From: a virus
Length of the DNA stretch: 64,000 bases
Direction: 5' to 3' (one strand)
IMG/VR virus record: IMGVR_UViG_3300045988_103535
The notes beneath the pieces are model-generated. The model ran no database searches, was not told where the DNA came from, and was given only the letters and a program-made list of their open reading frames with translations. Position 1 is the stretch's first letter; each line of letters opens with the position of its first letter. Position numbers and translations under genes: made by a program. Shown here one piece after another: positions 24,800 to 60,036 of the stretch.

Positions 24800-25789
24800 A
24801 TGAAAAAAAGCGAATTAGGTACATTAATCATAGGTAGTCAAATAGAAAATAAAAAGAACGGCGAAGTTTTTACAATAAATAATATTACAGAAATAGATAG
24901 TAAAGTAAAATATCAATTATCAAACGATAAAACAATATCTGCATCATCAATGTTAAGATGGTACAATCTAGTACAACCTGAAACAGTAGAACAAGTTGAA
25001 TTACCAATAGTACCAGTTGAAACAGTAGAACCTGTAGAACAAGTTGAACCTGAAACAGAACAACCTACTACAGAAGTTGAAACAGTAGAACCTGAACCTG
25101 TAGAACCTGAAACAGTTGAACCTGAACCTACTCCAGATGTTAAATTAACAGATTTAGAAAAAGAAGCTATGTGGATATTAAAAACTAATGAGTATGATAA
25201 CTGTTTCGATAGAAGTTGTGGCGTAGCTAGTACATGGGATTTTGTAATTACTGAAAACATTAGCTGTGGAATACAAGGAGCAAAAGGTGTTTTAGGTAGT
25301 CTTGTTAGAAAAGGACTTGTTATAATAGATACTGAAGGCGAATATAATAAAAACTCAAAACAATATGACCATGGCATCACACTTACAGATTTAGGTTATA
25401 AAGTAGGTCTTAAAGCATTAGAAACTTTTAACCCGGACAACATTAAACCAGTAGAACCTAAACAAGTAAATGTTAACACTAGCAACGATTTAGCAAACGA
25501 AATATTTGATTATTTTACAACTCAACAAAATACATTCACATTAAAACATAATTCAGACCATTCAGTTATTAAGCTAGGTCGCAAGAAATTAGTTGAAATA
25601 TATGTTAGTAATACAGAAGTAACAGTTGCAGTTAGACAAGAACTATATAGCGAAGACGAACAAGCAAACTTAGATAATAGCAGAATTGTTAAAGACTATG
25701 CTTTCACTCTAAAATTCAAAGTACATTCATTAGATGAATTTAAATCAGTTGTAAATCGTGCTAGCGTTTATGTTCCAGTTAAAAAATAG
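24800..25789 (+). CDS. early protein with Pro/Glu/Val-rich tandem repeat linker
   Basis: First gene after early promoter copy 1. Contains 'VEPVEQVEPETEQPTTEVETVEPEPVEPETVEPEPTP' and then 'LVRKGLVIIDTEG'. Confidence 0.65.
   Translation: MKKSELGTLIIGSQIENKKNGEVFTINNITEIDSKVKYQLSNDKTISASSMLRWYNLVQPETVEQVELPIVPVETVEPVEQVEPETEQPTTEVETVEPEPVEPETVEPEPTPDVKLTDLEKEAMWILKTNEYDNCFDRSCGVASTWDFVITENISCGIQGAKGVLGSLVRKGLVIIDTEGEYNKNSKQYDHGITLTDLGYKVGLKALETFNPDNIKPVEPKQVNVNTSNDLANEIFDYFTTQQNTFTLKHNSDHSVIKLGRKKLVEIYVSNTEVTVAVRQELYSEDEQANLDNSRIVKDYAFTLKFKVHSLDEFKSVVNRASVYVPVKK
24975..25135 (+). repeat. imperfect tandem repeats (GAAACAGTAGAACCTG-like units) encoding the PE-rich linker
   Basis: Repeated gttgaaacagtagaacct / gaacctgaa units are visible in the DNA. 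Confidence 0.7.
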
Positions 25790-25885: not shown

Positions 25886-25937
25886 ATAAGTATAAAGAAA
25901 AACAAATAAGAAATAAAAAGTAAAGGGGATATGAAAA

Positions 25938-26186
25938 ATGATGAAATTTGAAGAAAGAAAAACAATGGAAGTATTAGATTTATTAACAGAAAGCATGAAA
26001 GAAGCACAAGACCAAACAGGTGAACAACCTACATTATATGCAGAAACAATAGCAGACGAATTAGCTTATAGAGAAAACACTACATACGATGATTATTTTC
26101 AAGTATTAGTTGAAAAAGCATTAGACGAATTACAAACAATGGGACTTATAGAAGTAGACGATACTAATAAAGTAACAGTTTTATAA
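25938..26186 (+). CDS. small highly acidic early protein
   Basis: 82 aa with about 20 D/E versus 7 K/R. G-run SD (AAAGGGGA). Ends with 'LQTMGLIEVDD'. Confidence 0.6.
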   Translation: MMKFEERKTMEVLDLLTESMKEAQDQTGEQPTLYAETIADELAYRENTTYDDYFQVLVEKALDELQTMGLIEVDDTNKVTVL

Positions 26187-26221: not shown

Positions 26222-26249
26222 AATATAAAATAAAAAGGGGATATGAAAA

Positions 26250-26495
26250 ATGAAGTCAATGATATATGATAGTCGATTAAAAAGAGAATATTATAATTTA
26301 AGAGAAGACAATAATACTGTAGATTTTTATAGTTATACGTGGATTGATGAATTTGAAGCATATGCACCAAGTGAAAATCATACTTTTAAATTAGATAATG
26401 AAGGTTATAAAAATTGGAATGAATTTGTTGAACATATACGTCAATTTGGATTTTTAACAATAGAAGAAATAAAAATAAAAAGTACTTGTAGATAA
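26250..26495 (+). CDS. hypothetical early protein
   Basis: G-run SD. 81 aa. No motif recognised. Confidence 0.6.
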   Translation: MKSMIYDSRLKREYYNLREDNNTVDFYSYTWIDEFEAYAPSENHTFKLDNEGYKNWNEFVEHIRQFGFLTIEEIKIKSTCR

Positions 26496-28970: not shown

Positions 28971-29405
28971 ATGTTTAAAGAATTACAATCTAAAAAGAAT
29001 AGCAAACAGATTATACCTAATGAAAAGGAATATAAAATAGTCGAACACAAACTTCAATTAGCACAAGAACCTAATATGACTGAAATTAGAAAATGGTTTA
29101 TATTTAAGGCAGAAAAAATTTATAGCACTAAAATGTTAGGAACTCAGGTTATATACTGTAATAAGACATTGAATAAAATAAAAGAAAAATATCAATTTAA
29201 TAATCTCGCACTTGCCGCAAAACTAGATGTATGGCTAATTAAATATAAACAATTAGGCTATGACGGCATATTCGATTTTTCTAAACTTAATACCGACTGG
29301 ATATTGCATAACCTTGATGCTAATATTCCTAATTATAAAGGTAAGCATACTTCATATCAAAATAATAATGTAAACCAAATAAATACTGTTAATCGCAGAA
29401 TATAA
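28971..29405 (+). CDS. hypothetical protein
   Basis: AAGGAGG SD, coupled to the previous stop. Confidence 0.55.
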   Translation: MFKELQSKKNSKQIIPNEKEYKIVEHKLQLAQEPNMTEIRKWFIFKAEKIYSTKMLGTQVIYCNKTLNKIKEKYQFNNLALAAKLDVWLIKYKQLGYDGIFDFSKLNTDWILHNLDANIPNYKGKHTSYQNNNVNQINTVNRRI

Positions 29406-29418
29406 TTTTACTAAAATT

Positions 29419-29454
29419 GCTCAACCCTTGTAATATCAACGGGTTGAGTATTTT
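29419..29454 (+). terminator. rho-independent terminator
   Basis: CTCAACCC-N13-GGGTTGAG followed by TATTTT. Confidence 0.65.
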
Positions 29455-29482
29455 GTAACAAAAAAGTTACAATATTGTAACT
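29453..29482. promoter_or_regulatory. operator/origin-like palindromes
   Basis: TTGTAAC-A6-GTTACAA-TA-TTGTAAC. The segment 29465-29482 (AGTTACAATATTGTAACT) is a perfect 18-bp palindrome. Confidence 0.45.
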
Positions 29483-29490
29483 ATTTTAAG

Positions 29491-29520
29491 GTTAACATTA
29501 ACAGTCGCAAAAAGTATATT
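29491..29520 (+). promoter_or_regulatory. GTTAACA-type promoter
   Basis: GTTAACA-N17-TATATT. No obvious gene or clean terminator within the next ~120 nt. Confidence 0.4.
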
Positions 29521-29636
29521 ATATATAATTAGTTAAACAAATAAAACAAGTTAAAAAAAATAAAAAAAAATCTAAGCTGCGGAAGTTATTGTGCTAACGC
29601 ACCTCAACTAATATTTATAATTTTAGTAAATTTTAG

Positions 29637-29667
29637 TTTACACTATAATAAACTATTCGTATATAAT
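29637..29667 (+). promoter_or_regulatory. TTTACA-type promoter of mini-unit 1
   Basis: TTTACA (29637-42), N17, TATATAATATATAAGTA. Confidence 0.5.
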
Positions 29668-29671
29668 ATAT

Positions 29672-29776
29672 AAGTAATTAAAGTTTAAGATTTTAGTTAC
29701 TTAATACAAATTATTTCTTTTATTGTATTACCCCCTTTCCACTTTAAGTACCTAATAATTATTAGGTACTTTTTTA
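29672..29776 (+). ncRNA. candidate sRNA 1 (~105 nt, C-rich seed ACCCCCUUUCC)
   Basis: Promoter-to-terminator unit without ATG or SD. Predicted hairpins: AAGTAA...TTACTT and AATACAA...TTGTATT. The C-run at 29730-29740 is unpaired. Terminator is AGTACCTAATA/TATTAGGTACT + T5. Confidence 0.45.
29747..29776 (+). terminator. rho-independent terminator of mini-unit 1
   Basis: 11-bp perfect inverted repeat followed by TTTTT. Confidence 0.75.
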
Positions 29777-29784
29777 ATTTATTA

Positions 29785-29816
29785 GTTAACAATTTTGTAT
29801 CATATTAGTATATAAT
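29785..29816 (+). promoter_or_regulatory. GTTAACA-type promoter of mini-unit 2
   Basis: GTTAACA (29785-91), N17, TATATAATATATGTA. Confidence 0.55.
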
Positions 29817-29821
29817 ATATG

Positions 29822-29918
29822 TAAATACTTTATAGTAATAAAGTAAATCTCCCTTTTATTTTATTTATTTGTTTGGATACTGAGTTGAGGACTCCCCCTT
29901 CAACTCAGTATTTTTTTT
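29822..29918 (+). ncRNA. candidate sRNA 2 (~97 nt, CUCCCUUUU and CUCCCCCUU motifs)
   Basis: No ATG. Hairpin TACTTTAT-agta-ATAAAGTA. Unpaired UCUCCCUUUU at 29848-29857. The terminator loop carries ACUCCCCC. Confidence 0.45.
29878..29918 (+). terminator. rho-independent terminator of mini-unit 2
   Basis: TACTGAGTTGA...TCAACTCAGTA followed by T8. Confidence 0.8.
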
Positions 29919-29937
29919 ATTTGAATTACTGATATTA

Positions 29938-29974
29938 GTTAACGTTTTAGTTAAATTATTATTATATATATAAC
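29938..29974 (+). promoter_or_regulatory. GTTAACG-type promoter upstream of Bro-N gene
   Basis: GTTAACG then TATATATATAACATACATAA. The spacing is less canonical (18-22 nt). Confidence 0.35.
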
Positions 29975-30019
29975 ATACATAACAAAAAATATATTTAATT
30001 TATAAGGAGGAGTAAAAAG

Positions 30020-30673
30020 ATGAAGAAATTACAATTATTCATTAATGAAGAATTTGGAGAAATAAGAGGAATGGAGGTTAATGGTAAACCATATGTAGTT
30101 GCGAGTGATGTAGCTAAAGCATTAGGGTATAAAAGACCAAATGACGCAATATCACAACATTGTAAGTATACTGTAAAACACCGTATACCTCACCCTCAAA
30201 ATAAAACAAAAACTTTAGAGGTAAATATTATACCCGAGGGAGATGTTTATAGATTGATTATAAAATCTAAATTACCGTCAGCACAAAAATTTGAAGAATG
30301 GGTCATGGATGAAGTATTGCCAGAAATAAGAAGAACTGGAGGTTATATAGACGAGGGAGCAACTACACAACAATTAGAACAACTCCAACAAAAAATAAAC
30401 AAATTATTAAATTATAAAATAAAAGGCGATACTATAAACGATGTTTGCAGTGCTACTGGTTTAAGACGTAAAGATATAAAACAATATTTATTTGATAATG
30501 ATTGGGTAGTAGAATATAATGGAGAAATAACAAATTATGATTGTAGATATATCTTTATAGTAAGACATAAAGATATACATTTTACTTCAAAGGGATTAGA
30601 TAAAATATTAAAAGATTTACAACCTCTAAAACCTGTAAGACCATTAATTAATAAAGAACTTTATAGAAAGTAA
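30020..30673 (+). CDS. Bro-N domain protein (antirepressor-like)
   Basis: Contains 'FGEIRGMEVNGKPYVVASDVAKALGYKRPNDAISQHC' and 'IPEGDVYRLIIKSKLPSAQKFEEWVMDEVLPEIRRTGGY'. Confidence 0.8.
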   Translation: MKKLQLFINEEFGEIRGMEVNGKPYVVASDVAKALGYKRPNDAISQHCKYTVKHRIPHPQNKTKTLEVNIIPEGDVYRLIIKSKLPSAQKFEEWVMDEVLPEIRRTGGYIDEGATTQQLEQLQQKINKLLNYKIKGDTINDVCSATGLRRKDIKQYLFDNDWVVEYNGEITNYDCRYIFIVRHKDIHFTSKGLDKILKDLQPLKPVRPLINKELYRK

Positions 30674-30685
30674 TATACATTTATA

Positions 30686-30717
30686 GTTAACATTAATATG
30701 TATTAATTGTATATAAT
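30686..30717 (+). promoter_or_regulatory. GTTAACA-type promoter of mini-unit 3
   Basis: GTTAACA-N17-TATATAATACATA. Confidence 0.5.
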
Positions 30718-30722
30718 ACATA

Positions 30723-30797
30723 CAATTCATTAATAGTATTATCTAAATCATTTTCAACCCTTTAGTGTCTGGTAAACACTTTAGGGTTATTTTTTTT
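30723..30797 (+). ncRNA. candidate sRNA 3 (~75 nt)
   Basis: Promoter, ~35 nt of A/U-rich leader, then a terminator. No ATG. Confidence 0.35.
30756..30797 (+). terminator. rho-independent terminator
   Basis: AACCCTTTAGTGT-N7-ACACTTTAGGGTT followed by ATTTTTTT. Confidence 0.7.
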
Positions 30798-30799
30798 AT

Positions 30800-30831
30800 A
30801 TTAACAAAATATGTTACTTTTTATATATAAA
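30800..30831 (+). promoter_or_regulatory. (A)TTAACA-type promoter upstream of dnaC-like gene
   Basis: TTAACA (30801-06), N17, TATATAAAATATAAG. Confidence 0.5.
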
Positions 30832-30851
30832 ATATAAGAGGAGGTTTTACA

Positions 30852-32860: not shown

Positions 32861-32866
32861 AAATTA

Positions 32867-32898
32867 GTTAACATAAATTTTATGAAATTGTATATAAT
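32867..32898 (+). promoter_or_regulatory. GTTAACA-type promoter of mini-unit 4
   Basis: GTTAACA-N17-TATATAATATAAGTA. Confidence 0.55.
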
Positions 32899-32903
32899 AT
32901 AAG

Positions 32904-32998
32904 TAAGAAAAGTAATTCCCATTACACTTTTCTCCTTATAATATATTTTATGAATAATAACCGCAAAAGACTTCAACTCAAAAAGTTGGAGTCTTTTT
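32904..32998 (+). ncRNA. candidate sRNA 4 (~95 nt, UCCC loop and CUCCUU anti-SD)
   Basis: Hairpin AGAAAAGTAAT-UCCC-ATTAC(A)CTTTTCT, then CTCCTT (32932-37), then a terminator. The only ATG (32950) lacks an SD. Confidence 0.4.
32968..32998 (+). terminator. rho-independent terminator
   Basis: AGACTTCAACT-caaa-AGTTGGAGTCT followed by TTTTT. Confidence 0.75.
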
Positions 32999-33000
32999 AT

Positions 33001-33031
33001 GTTAACAAAATTTATAAAATTTGTATATAAT
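33001..33031 (+). promoter_or_regulatory. GTTAACA-type promoter upstream of primase
   Basis: GTTAACA-N16-TATATAATATATAA. Confidence 0.5.
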
Positions 33032-33059
33032 ATATAAACATGGAGAGGAGGTTTTACAA

Positions 33060-34091: not shown

Positions 34092-34148
34092 ATAAGTATA
34101 AAGTAAAACAAATAAAATAAATAAATAAAACGATGGGGGTTTAATATT

Positions 34149-38909: not shown

Positions 38910-38912
38910 ATA

Positions 38913-39006
38913 CATAACCCAATAGGGGGAGGGTTATAAAATATATCCTCCTAGCTTAAAAACTTATACACTTATACAAAAACTAAAAACAAGGAGGAAC
39001 ACAAAA
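38913..39006 (+). promoter_or_regulatory. structured SSB leader: hairpin + anti-SD + A/U-rich repeat
   Basis: ATAACCC-N10-GGGTTAT hairpin. TCCTCCT (38946-52) is complementary to the SD AGGAGGA (38992-98). Direct repeat CTTATACA x2 at 38963-78. Confidence 0.4.
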
Positions 39007-44701: not shown

Positions 44702-44711
44702 AAAAAATATA

Positions 44712-44743
44712 ATGAGTAGGGTTAACAACCTTACTCATTTTTT
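44712..44743 (+). terminator. terminator whose loop carries the next promoter's GTTAACA
   Basis: ATGAGTAGG-gttaaca-ACCTTACTCAT followed by TTTTTT. Confidence 0.65.
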
Positions 44744-44752
44744 ATATATAAC
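44721..44752 (+). promoter_or_regulatory. GTTAACA-type promoter (TATATAAC variant) upstream of dpdA-like gene
   Basis: GTTAACA-N17-TATATAACATACATAA. Confidence 0.5.
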
Positions 44753-49432: not shown

Positions 49433-49441
49433 TAATTTTAG

Positions 49442-49473
49442 CCCTTGCAACTTTACAGTTGCGAGGGTTTTTT
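49442..49473 (+). terminator. terminator whose loop carries the next promoter's TTTACA
   Basis: CCCTTGCAAC-tttaca-GTTGCGAGGG followed by T6. Confidence 0.75.
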
Positions 49474-49482
49474 ATATATAAC
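49452..49482 (+). promoter_or_regulatory. TTTACA-N17-TATATAAC promoter upstream of recA-sigma operon
   Basis: The -35 lies in the terminator loop. The -10 block is TATATAACATATATAA. Confidence 0.5.
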
Positions 49483-55324: not shown

Positions 55325-55354
55325 CCTGCTAGTTAACATTAATTAGCAGGTTTT
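55325..55354 (+). terminator. terminator whose loop carries the next promoter's GTTAACA
   Basis: CCTGCTA-gttaacattaat-TAGCAGG followed by TTTT. Confidence 0.6.
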
Positions 55355-55363
55355 GTATATAAC
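55332..55363 (+). promoter_or_regulatory. GTTAACA-type promoter (TATATAAC variant)
   Basis: GTTAACA-N17-TATATAACATATAA. Confidence 0.5.
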
Positions 55364-58573: not shown

Positions 58574-58945
58574 ATGAAAAAACAAATAGTATTAGAAGGT
58601 TTAAACAAAAAAGAAATAAGAAAACAAATGCATAACTTAGAAGAAAAAGGAATATACTTTGGAAAATGTATAGCAACAGCAGAACAAGATGGAATAATAA
58701 CAATGACATTTAGAGTGGAAAATCAATTTATGGATACAGAAGAATACAACAAATTAGTAGAAGTAGAACATGACCCAAGAATAACAACAGGCGCAAGAGT
58801 AAGAGTTAAAACAACTGGAGAAGAATTTACATTAGCTAGATTATATGAATACTCAAGAAGTCATAAAGTCGTTTATTGTACATCAGACGGAAGAAAATGG
58901 ACTCCAAATACAGTATATAAAAGATGTGAATATATAGGTCAATAA
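58574..58945 (+). CDS. hypothetical early protein
   Basis: First gene after promoter copy 3. 123 aa. Confidence 0.6.
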   Translation: MKKQIVLEGLNKKEIRKQMHNLEEKGIYFGKCIATAEQDGIITMTFRVENQFMDTEEYNKLVEVEHDPRITTGARVRVKTTGEEFTLARLYEYSRSHKVVYCTSDGRKWTPNTVYKRCEYIGQ

Positions 58946-58980: not shown

Positions 58981-59010
58981 TAATATAAAAATAAAGGGGG
59001 ATATATAAAA

Positions 59011-60036
59011 ATGAAAAAAGAAATTAAATTAACTCAAAAACAAGAACAAGTAATAAATAGCTTAAATGAAATGTTAGCAAAAACAGAATATGAAGTACAA
59101 CCTGTATCAGACACATATACTTATATGACAGCAGTTGCGAAGATAGTTTCTCACAGATGGTTCGATAGAACTTTTAAAGCATTAATAGAAAAAGGGTTAG
59201 TAGAAAAAGTTGATGCAGTAATAGAAATAACAAAAGGCGTACACGCTGGAAAAACAATAAAAACATATGGATATATTTTAACAGATTTAGGTTTTGAATA
59301 TTTAGGTATAGATAACCCAAATAAAACTGAGGAACAAAACCTACAAAATAATAATGAGTTAGTAGAAAGCTTATTTAAGTTACAACCTGTAGTTGATACA
59401 CCTGCAGAAACTGAATTAAGTCAGTATAAAAATAAACCTGAATATTCAATATATCCCGAAAATATAAACAGTCTTGATAAAGTTAAAGAGGTCGTAGGTA
59501 TAGTATTAAATGATGTATTATCAAAGAAACATCAACAACTATTACTAGACGAAATACATGATGGATATTTTAAAGTAACATTCAATTCTAGACTTAGAAC
59601 TTCATTAGGTAGATGTTGTGAGACTGCTAGATATGGAAAACGCCATATAAGATGTATTGAATTTAGTTCAAATTATATAAAATATGAACCTGACAATAAT
59701 TTAAAAATAGATACTATAATACATGAAATATGTCATGCGGTAACAGATTTAGAAACTGAAGAATCTAATATGCATGGACCTAAATGGCAAGCTAATTGTA
59801 TCAAATATGGGTGTAGTCCAACAACCAGGGATAAAATAGTACATTATAAAGAGGTAATGTGGAAAAAAGGTCTTATATCTCATAGACTTGTATGTGTAGA
59901 CTGCGATAAAGTAATCCAGTATGTAAACAATCCAAGTAAAAGTTATATATACAACGTATTACATCATTACTATTATCATAAACAATGCGGTGGACATCGT
60001 TTAATATTAGAAACAAATCCAGTTAACAATAAATAG
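59011..60036 (+). CDS. SprT-like zinc metalloprotease with N-terminal winged-helix-like region
   Basis: Contains 'TIIHEICHAV...HGPKWQ' and C-terminal 'CVDCDK...HKQCGGH'. The N-terminal part has 'FKALIEKGLVEKVD'. Confidence 0.7.
   Translation: MKKEIKLTQKQEQVINSLNEMLAKTEYEVQPVSDTYTYMTAVAKIVSHRWFDRTFKALIEKGLVEKVDAVIEITKGVHAGKTIKTYGYILTDLGFEYLGIDNPNKTEEQNLQNNNELVESLFKLQPVVDTPAETELSQYKNKPEYSIYPENINSLDKVKEVVGIVLNDVLSKKHQQLLLDEIHDGYFKVTFNSRLRTSLGRCCETARYGKRHIRCIEFSSNYIKYEPDNNLKIDTIIHEICHAVTDLETEESNMHGPKWQANCIKYGCSPTTRDKIVHYKEVMWKKGLISHRLVCVDCDKVIQYVNNPSKSYIYNVLHHYYYHKQCGGHRLILETNPVNNK

What the first reader, a model, noticed from the sequence alone, without database searches (positions are those of the whole stretch)
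29637..29918. Two back-to-back promoter-to-terminator mini-units: candidate C-rich anti-Shine-Dalgarno sRNAs
Unit 1 runs from TTTACA-N17-TATATAAT to the terminator at 29747-29776. Unit 2 runs from GTTAACA-N17-TATATAAT to the terminator at 29878-29918. Each would give a ~100-nt transcript with no ATG or SD. Each has internal hairpins and exposed C-runs: ACCCCCUUUCC at 29730-40, UCUCCCUUUU at 29848-57, and CUCCCCCUU in the second terminator loop. CCCCCUUU is perfectly complementary to the unusual G-run ribosome-binding sites of early genes: AAAGGGGG at 58993-59000, and AAAGGGG at 25921 and 26233. Similar G-runs occur at 34136 and 60111. Most middle and late genes instead use AAGGAGG. C-rich seeds that pair with SDs are the hallmark of Firmicute sRNAs such as RsaE/RoxS. 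The hypothesis is that the phage makes these sRNAs to shut off early-gene, or host, translation.
Basis: partly seen in the sequence, partly recalled or inferred. Interest (0 to 1): 0.75.

Follow-up and report, generated by a model that had tools for sequence, protein, structure and literature searches.

The report
Phage sibling sRNAs with C-rich seeds
Two tiny self-contained genes (of about four) in this uncultured gut-phage genome most likely make ~100-nt regulatory RNAs with exposed C-rich motifs that resemble the ribosome's anti-Shine-Dalgarno sequence, a regulator type well known in Firmicute bacteria that I did not find described for their lytic-type phages.

Summary
Both units start at members of a phage promoter family, TTAACA-N17-TATATAAT (15 hits, all on the + strand, 0.68 expected). 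Both end at strong intrinsic terminators, contain no ORF, and fold far better than shuffles (z about -5.7). CCCCC occurs three times on the + strand in 64 kb, and two of those are in these units.

About 60 related human-gut phage contigs keep both units while the neighbouring genes change. The unit-2 terminator occurs with at least four unrelated stems, yet its loop keeps a C-run in nearly every variant. Of 25 CCC-containing loops among 153 distinct terminators, 24 belong to this family. Two further mini-units have the same build (30687-30797 and 32868-33000).

The best reading is a set of autonomous sibling sRNAs with anti-SD-like seeds. In architecture they are closest to Listeria LhrC and streptococcal csRNAs, not RsaE/RoxS. 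No Rfam family reaches threshold.

The proposed targets (G-run RBSs at 25938, 26250 and 59011) do rank top by duplex energy relative to the 16S anti-SD. That is nearly automatic, coding-region sites score as well, and nothing shows these genes are early. Expression and targets are untested, and the host is unknown.

The parts
29420..29448 (+). Intrinsic terminator that closes the upstream operon (ends at ORF 28971-29405)
29492..29522 (+). P0, a third member of the promoter family. No terminator lies before unit 1, so it would give a longer (~250 nt) isoform ending at the unit-1 terminator
   Evidence: Its own transcript segment is not structured (z -0.7)
29637..29667 (+). Unit 1 promoter, TTTACA-N17-TATATAAT
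   Evidence: Conserved in relatives
29672..29779 (+). Predicted sRNA 1 (~107 nt): 5' hairpin 29673-29701, hairpin 29702-29730, unpaired C-rich stretch, then terminator
   Evidence: MFE -24.2, z -5.6; consensus fold
29731..29745 (+). Single-stranded seed candidate CCCCCUUUCCACUUU. In relatives it reads CCCCCCUUUCC, UUUCCCCUUU, UCUCCCUUCC, UCUCCCCCUUCC, CCCCUUUUU or UUACCUCUUAU
29746..29777 (+). Unit 1 intrinsic terminator (11-bp stem plus U-tract), nearly invariant in relatives
29786..29816 (+). Unit 2 promoter, TTAACA-N17-TATATAAT (exact match to the consensus)
29821..29921 (+). Predicted sRNA 2 (~100 nt): 5' hairpin, CU-rich unpaired or loop region, then a long terminator with a C-rich loop
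   Evidence: MFE -26.8, z -5.8
29848..29857 (+). UCUCCCUUUU motif. It is in a loop in the MFE and single-stranded in the consensus fold. It contains the CUCCC...UUUU motif described for LhrC
29875..29920 (+). Unit 2 terminator: 16-bp stem, loop ACUCCCC (29891-29897), U-tract
29939..29968 (+). P3, the promoter-like site for the downstream Bro-N gene (30020-30673). It shows that unit 2 is not that gene's only promoter or leader
   Evidence: (repeat D4)
30687..30797 (+). Unit 3: same promoter type, ~75-nt non-coding transcript, terminator 30756-30788 with the conserved loop CUGGUAA. No exposed C-run
32868..33000 (+). Unit 4: same promoter type, ~98-nt non-coding transcript with UUCCCA in the first hairpin loop and a CUCCUUAUAA stretch, terminator 32965-32997. 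It is followed by a second promoter for the primase gene
58993..59000 (+). Candidate target: AAAGGGGG RBS of gene 59011 (SprT-like). It is the best genome-wide duplex partner of the unit-2 CU motif
25922..25928 (+). Candidate target: AAAGGGG RBS of gene 25938
26234..26240 (+). Candidate target: AAAGGGG RBS of gene 26250

Best explanation
Units 1 and 2 are autonomous small-RNA genes, and probably so are the similarly built units at 30687-30797 and 32868-33000.

Inferred steps:
1. Host RNA polymerase starts at the phage's standard promoter (TTAACA-N17-TATATAAT).
2. It stops about 100 nt later at an intrinsic terminator.
3. The RNAs fold into a 5' hairpin, an unpaired C/U-rich stretch, and a terminator hairpin. 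In unit 2 that hairpin displays a second C-run in its loop.
4. These motifs (CCCCCUUUCC, UCUCCCUUUU, ACUCCCC) resemble the 16S anti-Shine-Dalgarno sequence. They most likely act as seeds that base-pair with purine/G-rich ribosome-binding regions of mRNAs, from the phage, the host or both, and block translation initiation. This is how the multicopy CU-rich sRNAs LhrC and csRNA, and RsaE/RoxS, work in Firmicutes.
5. Because the seeds are C5 or CUCCC rather than CCUCC, they should prefer GGGGG/GGGAG-type RBSs over canonical GGAGG.

Shown here: promoter-family membership, terminators, non-coding status, predicted structure, and clade-wide conservation of the C-rich motifs against a changing background.
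Inferred: transcription, trans action, RBS pairing and target identity.
For: - Promoter family: 15 hits, all on +, against 0.68 expected. It includes both units.
- Terminators and folds: z about -5.7.
- Only three intergenic regions in 64 kb have the order promoter, no ORF, terminator, promoter. They hold most of the intergenic CU-rich motifs found in the window (4 of 7).
- CCCCC: 2 of the 3 + strand occurrences lie here.
- Conservation: units 1 and 2 are kept in IMG/VR and human-gut metagenome relatives at 75-99% identity, while the flanking genes vary (Bro-N, a 77-aa gene, an inserted Rha-like cassette, dnaC) and each downstream gene has its own promoter.
- Unit-2 family: 20 distinct hairpins with 8 different 5' arms falling into at least four unrelated stem types. 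All 200 of 200 inner stem pairs are canonical. Loop C content is 40-71% against 12.7% background, and 17 of the 20 loops keep a run of at least 4 C.
- 24 of 25 CCC-containing loops among 153 distinct + strand terminators belong to this family.
- Clades with unrelated sequence keep the same plan, a C/U-rich motif just 5' of a terminator.
- Indels of 1-3 nt exclude coding.
- The consensus folds leave the motifs unpaired.
[quoted passage not shown] They also match csRNAs: two stem-loops with an unpaired anti-SD, in multiple copies (PMC3091779).
- G-run TIRs are where the seeds beat the 16S anti-SD most.
- The GGGG RBS of 59011 homologues persists in three different upstream contexts, and the G5 RBS of 34149 persists in relatives.
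Against: - There are no expression data of any kind, and the host is unidentified.
- No Rfam family reaches threshold.
- A covariance model built from the distant clade finds window unit 2 at only 21.6 bits (E about 0.04). Ordinary gene-end terminators score the same, so cross-clade homology is argued from synteny and architecture, not shown statistically.
- Within close clades the stems hardly vary, so there is no within-clade covariation.
- A few relatives carry interrupted loops (CUCCACC, CUCCCGC, UUCCCA).
- Target complementarity is not specific. Coding-region sites give equal or better duplex energies.
- The 25938 RBS changes to GGAG in a relative, and no sRNA/target covariation was seen.
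- Terminator stems would covary whether or not the RNA had a trans function.
Confidence: 0.55

Rival explanations
1. These are transcription-architecture elements with no trans function. The region is a cassette junction where terminators insulate modules and promoters restart transcription. The short transcripts are by-products, and the C-rich loops are kept for some reason linked to termination or are hitch-hiking.
For: The phage is densely punctuated by terminator/promoter pairs, some with the -35 box inside the terminator loop. Accessory genes are inserted and lost exactly at these terminators in relatives. Terminator stems covary regardless of any RNA function. The covariance model cannot tell unit 2 from ordinary terminators.
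Against: Insulation needs no promoter in front of each terminator. It also needs no conserved ~60-nt body and no C-run. Of about 128 other distinct terminators in the clade, only 1 has CCC in its loop. The C/U-rich single-stranded motif upstream of the terminator is kept even where all other sequence differs. The units persist whatever genes flank them.
Confidence: 0.15
2. These are protein-sequestering or decoy RNAs. The repeated C/U-rich motifs in loops and single strands titrate a host or phage RNA-binding protein or nuclease that recognises pyrimidine-rich or anti-SD-like sequence, rather than pairing with mRNAs.
For: Several copies of a short motif are displayed in loops of several sibling RNAs, the same layout as CsrB/RsmZ-type sponges. 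The LhrC authors raise this possibility themselves. The unit-1 motif ACCCCCUUUCC resembles the 16S 3' tail ACCUCCUUUCU (my own knowledge of the 16S sequence).
Against: No candidate binding protein was identified here. All characterised UCCC/C-rich Firmicute sRNAs cited in the literature I read act by base pairing.
Confidence: 0.12
3. These are cis-acting leaders or attenuators. Transcripts from the unit promoters normally stop at the terminators, and a phage antiterminator lets them read through into bro, dnaC or the primase gene. This would time the replication module.
For: All units are co-oriented with the replication genes and sit immediately upstream of them. Tandem promoter/terminator arrays are used for temporal control in other phages (my own knowledge).
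Against: Every downstream gene has its own family promoter between the terminator and its RBS (29939, 30801, 33002). The gene downstream of unit 2 differs between relatives. No alternative antiterminator fold was predicted.
Confidence: 0.08
4. This is a replication origin or primer-transcript region. The A/T-rich 614-bp spacer with clustered promoters, next to the helicase loader, helicase and primase genes, would be a transcription-activated origin, with the short RNAs acting as R-loop primers.
For: The position is upstream of the replication module. There is a long A-tract at 29552-29570 and a perfect 16-bp palindrome at 29466-29481.
Against: GC skew shows no inflection there. No iteron-type repeats were found beyond the promoter repeats. 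The same kind of unit recurs at two other sites and sits directly before dnaC in the distant clade. An origin does not explain the conserved C-run loops.
Confidence: 0.05

Closest known systems
LhrC1-5 multicopy sRNAs of Listeria monocytogenes (PMC4132741)
   Same: About 100-110 nt. Several sibling copies, four of them in one locus, each with its own promoter and terminator. [quoted passage not shown] They pair with Shine-Dalgarno regions. Window unit 2 carries UCUCCCUUUU and a C-rich terminator loop, and unit 1 carries a single-stranded C-run.
   Different: No sequence or structure match to the Rfam LhrC model at E<=10. The window RNAs are phage-encoded rather than chromosomal. Their promoters are the phage's general promoters, not LisRK-dependent. 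The seeds are often C5-C9 rather than UCCC. The siblings are not near-identical copies of each other.
csRNAs (Cia-dependent small RNAs) of Streptococcus, Rfam RF02379 (PMC3091779)
   Same: Multiple sibling sRNAs with two stem-loops and an unpaired region that carries anti-SD sequence. Unit 4 gives its best sub-threshold Rfam hit to csRNA over the full model (27.3 bits). The paper notes 'limited similarity' to csRNAs in streptococcal phages. Dp-1 of S. pneumoniae is a distant relative of this phage.
   Different: The score is far below the gathering threshold (27.3 against 57). No CiaR box is present. No Rfam family reaches its gathering score in Dp-1 or in the phiCTP1 replication-region segment L001. 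There is no clear anti-AUG next to the anti-SD in units 1 and 2.
RsaE/RoxS and other UCCC-motif sRNAs (RsaA-K, IsrR, RNAIII) of Bacillales
   Same: C-rich motifs in loops or unpaired regions pair with G-rich RBSs, and action is Hfq-independent.
   Different: No match to the RsaE model. RsaE is a single-copy, highly conserved chromosomal gene with defined metabolic targets.
Phage T4 RegB endoribonuclease (functional analogy only; my own knowledge)
   Same: A phage-encoded device that inactivates a subset of mRNAs through their Shine-Dalgarno sequence (GGAG) to shut off early translation.
   Different: RegB is a protein nuclease, not an RNA. There is no evidence here that the G-run genes are early.
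Known phage or prophage sRNAs (e.g. SprY of S. aureus phi12, DicF, StxS; review PMC12197685)
   Same: Trans-acting sRNAs encoded on phage DNA.
   Different: The only Gram-positive example my term search of that review found is a single prophage gene (SprY of S. aureus); the term search found nothing for Gram-positive, Listeria, Bacillus, Clostridium or lytic phages, though I did not read the review in full. None of the examples I saw is a clade-conserved set of C-rich sibling sRNAs in a Bacillota siphophage. A Listeria lytic-phage study explicitly noted the absence of UCCC-motif RNAs.

Membership tests
LhrC (Rfam RF00616) | Match to the family covariance model | tested here: not met
   cmscan of 29000-30500 and of 29630-29930 at E<=10 lists no LhrC hit. 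Nothing in the whole window reaches gathering.
LhrC (Rfam RF00616) | Three CU-rich (UCCC) sites: hairpin loop, inter-hairpin single strand, terminator loop | tested here: met
   The criterion is met only across the pair of units; neither RNA carries all three sites. Unit 2 has UCUCCCU in a loop or single strand, plus ACUCCCC in the terminator loop. Unit 1 has CCCCCUUUCC single-stranded.
LhrC (Rfam RF00616) | Several near-identical copies per genome, clustered | tested here: inconclusive
   Two adjacent units plus two more within 3.3 kb share promoter type and plan. They are not near-identical to each other: only the promoters align (70% over 54 nt).
LhrC (Rfam RF00616) | Direct pairing with the SD of target mRNAs and translational repression | not testable with these tools
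   Only duplex energies could be computed.
csRNA (Rfam RF02379) | Match to the family covariance model at gathering score 57 | tested here: not met
   Unit 4 scores 27.3 bits over model positions 1-93 of 93. Units 1 and 2 give no hit.
csRNA (Rfam RF02379) | CiaR-dependent promoter (direct repeat TTTAAG-N5-TTTAAG upstream of -10; my own knowledge of the family) | tested here: not met
   The promoters of units 1, 2 and 4 read TTAGTT(A/T)ACA-N17-TATATAAT, with no such repeat.
csRNA (Rfam RF02379) | Two stem-loops with an unpaired region carrying anti-SD (and usually anti-AUG) | tested here: inconclusive
   Two or three stem-loops and an unpaired CU-rich stretch are present. No CAU is placed next to the CU motif in units 1 and 2.
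RsaE/RoxS (Rfam RF01820) | Match to the family covariance model | tested here: not met
   No hit at E<=10.
RsaE/RoxS (Rfam RF01820) | C-rich motifs in unpaired regions or loops | tested here: met
Generic bacterial trans-acting sRNA gene | Own promoter, intrinsic terminator, no ORF, conserved independently of its neighbours | tested here: met
   promoter and terminator; conservation with changing neighbours
Generic bacterial trans-acting sRNA gene | Discrete transcript detected | not testable with these tools
   No transcriptome data are available, and the host is unknown.
One homologous phage sRNA family across clades (unit 2 = the dnaC-upstream unit of the distant clade) | Statistically significant sequence/structure similarity | tested here: inconclusive
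   Model R1, built from 18 distant-clade sequences, finds window 29838-29917 at 21.6 bits (E about 0.04). That ranks third, behind two ordinary gene-end terminators. Synteny, length, the GUAA 5' start, the CU motif, the U-rich linker and the C-run loop are shared.

The most novel reading that the evidence does not exclude
A whole clade of human-gut Bacillota phages carries a small 'anti-SD sRNA regulon'. Three or four sibling sRNAs have C5/CUCCC seeds that distinguish G-run ribosome-binding sites (GGGGG, GGGAG) from canonical GGAGG. G-run RBSs then act as address tags. This lets the phage switch off a defined subset of its own or host mRNAs by RNA pairing, an RNA-based counterpart of T4 RegB. 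Ribosomes can still read those sites through G-U wobble when the sRNAs are absent.
Probability: 0.2. Interest if true: 0.8.

Novelty: new variant of a known kind. Interest (0 to 1): 0.55.

Why it matters
C-rich (UCCC-type) sRNAs that mask Shine-Dalgarno sequences are a signature of post-transcriptional control in low-GC Gram-positive bacteria. Phage-encoded sRNAs are known mostly from prophages of proteobacteria. In the papers I retrieved, I found no set of C-rich sibling sRNAs described for a Bacillota phage, and a recent Listeria-phage transcriptome study noted their absence.

If these RNAs are expressed and act as predicted, a widespread group of uncultured human-gut phages uses the host's own riboregulatory grammar, either to time its gene expression or to take over host translation. 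The family would also give a compact, naturally diversified set of seeds and terminator scaffolds for studying loop-presented seeds. The G-run against GGAGG distinction is directly testable with reporters.

Tried and rejected
- Known RNA families: Rfam at gathering over the whole window and at E<=10 over the region gave nothing. The best sub-threshold hit is csRNA for unit 4. No tRNA or tmRNA was found.
- DNA similarity of the spacer to 50,697 phage records: no match. Related isolates (phiCTP1, FA88, Dp-1) have no equivalent spacer at that position.
- Hidden small ORFs on either strand: rejected. There is no ATG or SD, and the indels are not in multiples of three. The apparent ATG-started frame in the distant-clade unit is frameshifted between relatives.
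- Cross-clade homology by covariance model: inconclusive. MAFFT could not keep the unrelated stems in register, so I counted the pairs by script instead.
- Origin of replication by GC skew: no signal.
- RNA anti-CRISPR or solitary-repeat idea: I considered this because a relative carries a CRISPR-like array nearby. By eye the units show no resemblance to that repeat. I did not pursue it further.
- The G5 hairpin loop in the 5'UTR of gene 39007 as a kissing-loop target (8 bp perfect with CUCCCCCU): downgraded. In relatives that G-run covaries with a CU-rich element in the same UTR, which indicates a cis helix.
- Target prediction by duplex energy: TIRs are enriched among the top sites, but coding sites score equally, so it does not discriminate.
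- Host identification: the genome-contig scan found only 30-46% identical relatives, almost all in Bacillota (Clostridia and related) MAGs. The protein at 24800-25789, which I took for a possible endolysin and did not annotate, has no match in the phage collection.
Full report
CONTEXT. The window is a ~64-kb, 30% G+C phage genome with every gene on the + strand. Structural genes occupy about 1-25 kb. An SNF2 helicase, a Bro-N protein, a DnaC-like loader, DnaB, a primase and further replication genes follow. The nearest isolates are only distant: Clostridium phages phiCTP1 and FA88, and Streptococcus phages Dp-1 and MS1, at 40-49% protein identity. Close relatives are uncultured IMG/VR and human-gut metagenome contigs. 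The host is unknown. Distant DnaC relatives sit almost entirely in Bacillota MAGs (Clostridia and related). The finding lies in the longest intergenic region of the window, 29406-30019 (614 bp), between a 144-aa ORF and the Bro-N gene.

Both units begin with TT(T/A)ACA-N17-TATATAAT. This is the phage's own promoter consensus, not an AT-rich accident. With at most one mismatch it occurs 15 times, all on the + strand and almost all in front of genes, against 0.68 expected (19 on + and 2 on -). A generic sigma-70 scan was not enriched, so the family-specific consensus is what counts.

Both units end in strong intrinsic terminators, at 29746-29771 and 29875-29913. Neither has an ATG or an SD. The predicted transcripts (~107 and ~100 nt) fold much better than shuffles (z -5.6 and -5.8). 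The C-rich stretches are unpaired or in loops. C is the rarest base on this strand (12.7%). CCCCC occurs three times on the + strand in 64 kb, twice here.

THE UNITS BELONG TO A LARGER SET. Only three intergenic regions in the window have the order promoter, no ORF, terminator, promoter, gene. They are this one (two units), 30674-30851 (unit 3, before dnaC) and 32861-33059 (unit 4, before the primase gene). Unit 4 folds with z -5.9. It shows UUCCCA in its first hairpin loop and a CUCCUUAUAA stretch. Unit 3 has no exposed C-run, but it has a conserved terminator loop of a different kind, CUGGUAA. A third family promoter, P0 at 29492, lies upstream of unit 1 with no terminator of its own.

COMPARATIVE EVIDENCE. 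About 60 related contigs were recovered.

Units 1 and 2 are present in the close clade (85-99% DnaC identity) although their neighbours change. In several relatives a Rha-like gene with its own promoter is inserted between unit 1 and unit 2, flanked by a duplicated terminator half. Downstream of unit 2 one finds Bro-N, a 77-aa gene or other genes.

In unit 1 the terminator is nearly invariant. The stretch just 5' of it is always C/U-rich but varies by slippage-like indels: CCCCCUUUCC, CCCCCCUUUCC, UUUCCCCUUU, UCUCCCUUCC, UCUCCCCCUUCC, CCCCUUUUU. This rules out coding.

In a 72% clade (L009) both units are there with different sequences but the same plan: UUACCUCUUAU plus a terminator, and UUUCCCCUUAAUUAA plus a terminator.

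In the 65-67% clade, which uses a different promoter consensus, a ~95-nt unit sits directly upstream of the dnaC promoter. It has a 5' hairpin, a single-stranded AACCC(C)UUAA, a U-rich linker, and a terminator whose loop is UCCCCCCUUU, ACUCCCCCA, UACCCCCUUU or similar. A unit-4 counterpart with ACUCCC(C)UUU(C)UUUU follows dnaB in the same genomes.

For the unit-2 family I compared 20 distinct terminator hairpins. They have eight different 5' arms that fall into at least four unrelated stem types, yet all 200 inner stem pairs are canonical. Loop C content is 40-71%, and 17 of the 20 loops keep a run of at least 4 C. Among 153 distinct + strand terminators in the clade's loci, 25 have CCC in the loop, and 24 of those are this family. 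So the C-run is specific to this RNA and is not a general property of the phage's terminators. It is retained while the stem around it is replaced.

LIMITS OF THE COMPARATIVE EVIDENCE. Within close clades there is no covariation, because the sequences are too similar. A covariance model trained on the distant clade finds window unit 2 at only 21.6 bits. Ordinary gene-end terminators score the same. Cross-clade homology therefore rests on synteny and architecture. A few relatives have interrupted loops: CUCCACC, CUCCCGC and UUCCCA.

WHAT IT IS MOST LIKELY. These are autonomous sRNA genes. Three points argue this. Each downstream gene has its own promoter. The downstream gene varies between relatives. 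The conserved features are the RNA's unpaired C/U-rich motifs.

The layout is a 5' hairpin, an unpaired CU-rich stretch and a terminator with a CU-rich loop, in several sibling genes. [quoted passage not shown] It is also close to streptococcal csRNAs. Window unit 2 literally contains UCUCCCUUUU. The motifs also resemble the 16S 3' tail (ACCUCCUUUCU, my own knowledge). I therefore commit to base pairing with purine-rich translation-initiation regions as the mechanism (confidence about 0.55).

TARGETS: WHAT CAN AND CANNOT BE SAID. The three seeds pair best with G-run TIRs in duplex energy. Relative to the 16S anti-SD, the largest advantage is at 25938, 38455, 26250, 59011, 975 and 34149. The best genome-wide site for the unit-2 CU motif is the 59011 TIR, with 13 contiguous pairs. 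The GGGG RBS of 59011 homologues is kept in three different upstream contexts, and the G5 RBS of 34149 is kept in 82-83% relatives.

But C-runs pair with G-runs by construction. Coding-region sites score as well. The 25938 RBS is GGAG in one relative. No seed/RBS covariation was seen. Unit 4's seed (CUCCUUAUAA) fits canonical UAUAAGGAG sites that many genes share. The G-run genes include structural, replication and methylase genes, so calling them 'early genes' is unsupported. Host targets cannot be examined.

RIVALS. The alternatives I weighed are by-products of a terminator/promoter cassette junction (0.15), a protein decoy or sponge (0.12), a cis attenuator (0.08) and origin or primer transcripts (0.05). 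Evidence for and against each is in the rival explanations above. No GC-skew signal supports an origin.

KNOWN FAMILIES. No Rfam model reaches threshold anywhere in the window. No LhrC or RsaE hit appears at E<=10. Unit 4's best hit is csRNA at 27.3 bits against a gathering score of 57. Dp-1 and the phiCTP1 segment give nothing. So the units work like LhrC, csRNA or RsaE but are members of none of them.

My term search of a 2025 review of phage sRNAs turned up no comparable Firmicute lytic-phage example. A Listeria phage transcriptome paper remarks on the absence of UCCC motifs in its phage RNAs. Marx et al. mention 'limited similarity' to csRNAs in streptococcal phages.

VERDICT. I call this a new variant of a known kind: phage-encoded, clade-conserved sibling C-rich sRNAs. 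Interest is 0.55. The comparative signal is solid and the hypothesis is directly testable, but expression, targets and host are all unknown.

Noticed in passing
window 30687-30797: Unit 3 is a promoter-to-terminator mini-gene before the dnaC promoter. Its terminator loop CUGGUAA (30769-30775) is kept in relatives on at least five unrelated stems. It has no C-run, and its function is unknown.
   Followed up: partly
window 32868-33000: Unit 4 is a mini-gene between dnaB and the primase gene, with UUCCCA in a hairpin loop and a CUCCUUAUAA stretch. It is conserved in all clades with CUCC(C)UUU motifs. Its best sub-threshold Rfam hit is csRNA at 27.3 bits.
   Followed up: partly
window 29466-29481: A perfect 16-bp palindrome, GTTACAATATTGTAAC, sits just upstream of the -35 of promoter P0, with a further TTGTAAC half-site at 29453. 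It is unique in the window and conserved in relatives. It looks like an operator.
   Followed up: partly
window 38911-39006: The 5'UTR of gene 39007 has a hairpin with a G-rich loop (AGGGGGAGGG) and a downstream CU-rich element. The two covary in relatives (GGGGG/CCCCC, GGGAG/CUCCC, AGAGG/CCUCU), which indicates a conserved cis helix near the RBS.
   Followed up: partly
window 44711-44752, 49440-49482, 55325-55363: These are compact terminator/promoter fusions. The -35 hexamer (TTAACA or TTTACA) of the next promoter lies in or directly beside the loop of the preceding terminator hairpin.
   Followed up: no
window 25922-25940, 26234-26252, 58993-59013: Three unrelated genes share nearly the same translation-initiation region, AAAGGGG(G)AUAU(G/A)(A/U)AAAA-AUG. 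25938 and the gene at 58574 also share an almost identical TTGACT promoter and leader module, which is also seen before a different gene in L028.
   Followed up: partly
L027:5568-5813 (IMGVR_UViG_3300045988_080327): A relative carries a CRISPR-like mini-array in the same accessory region. It has four copies of a ~37-nt repeat (GTAATAGACTATATTTCAATTATACAAGGATTAAAAC) at a 73-nt period. From memory, the repeat's 3' end resembles type VI-A repeats. I did not test this.
   Followed up: partly
L028:4876-5688 and L034:6892-7593: In several relatives a Rha-like regulatory gene (231-233 aa) with its own TTGACA promoter is inserted between units 1 and 2. The insertion ends in a duplicate of the 3' half of the unit-1 terminator, which suggests cassette exchange by recombination at terminators.
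   Followed up: partly
L011-L025, about 150 nt upstream of the dnaC start: The 65-67% clade uses a different promoter consensus (GTTAGTAAA ... TTTCTATACTATATAT) from the window's TTAACA-N17-TATATAAT, yet keeps the same mini-gene layout.
   Followed up: no
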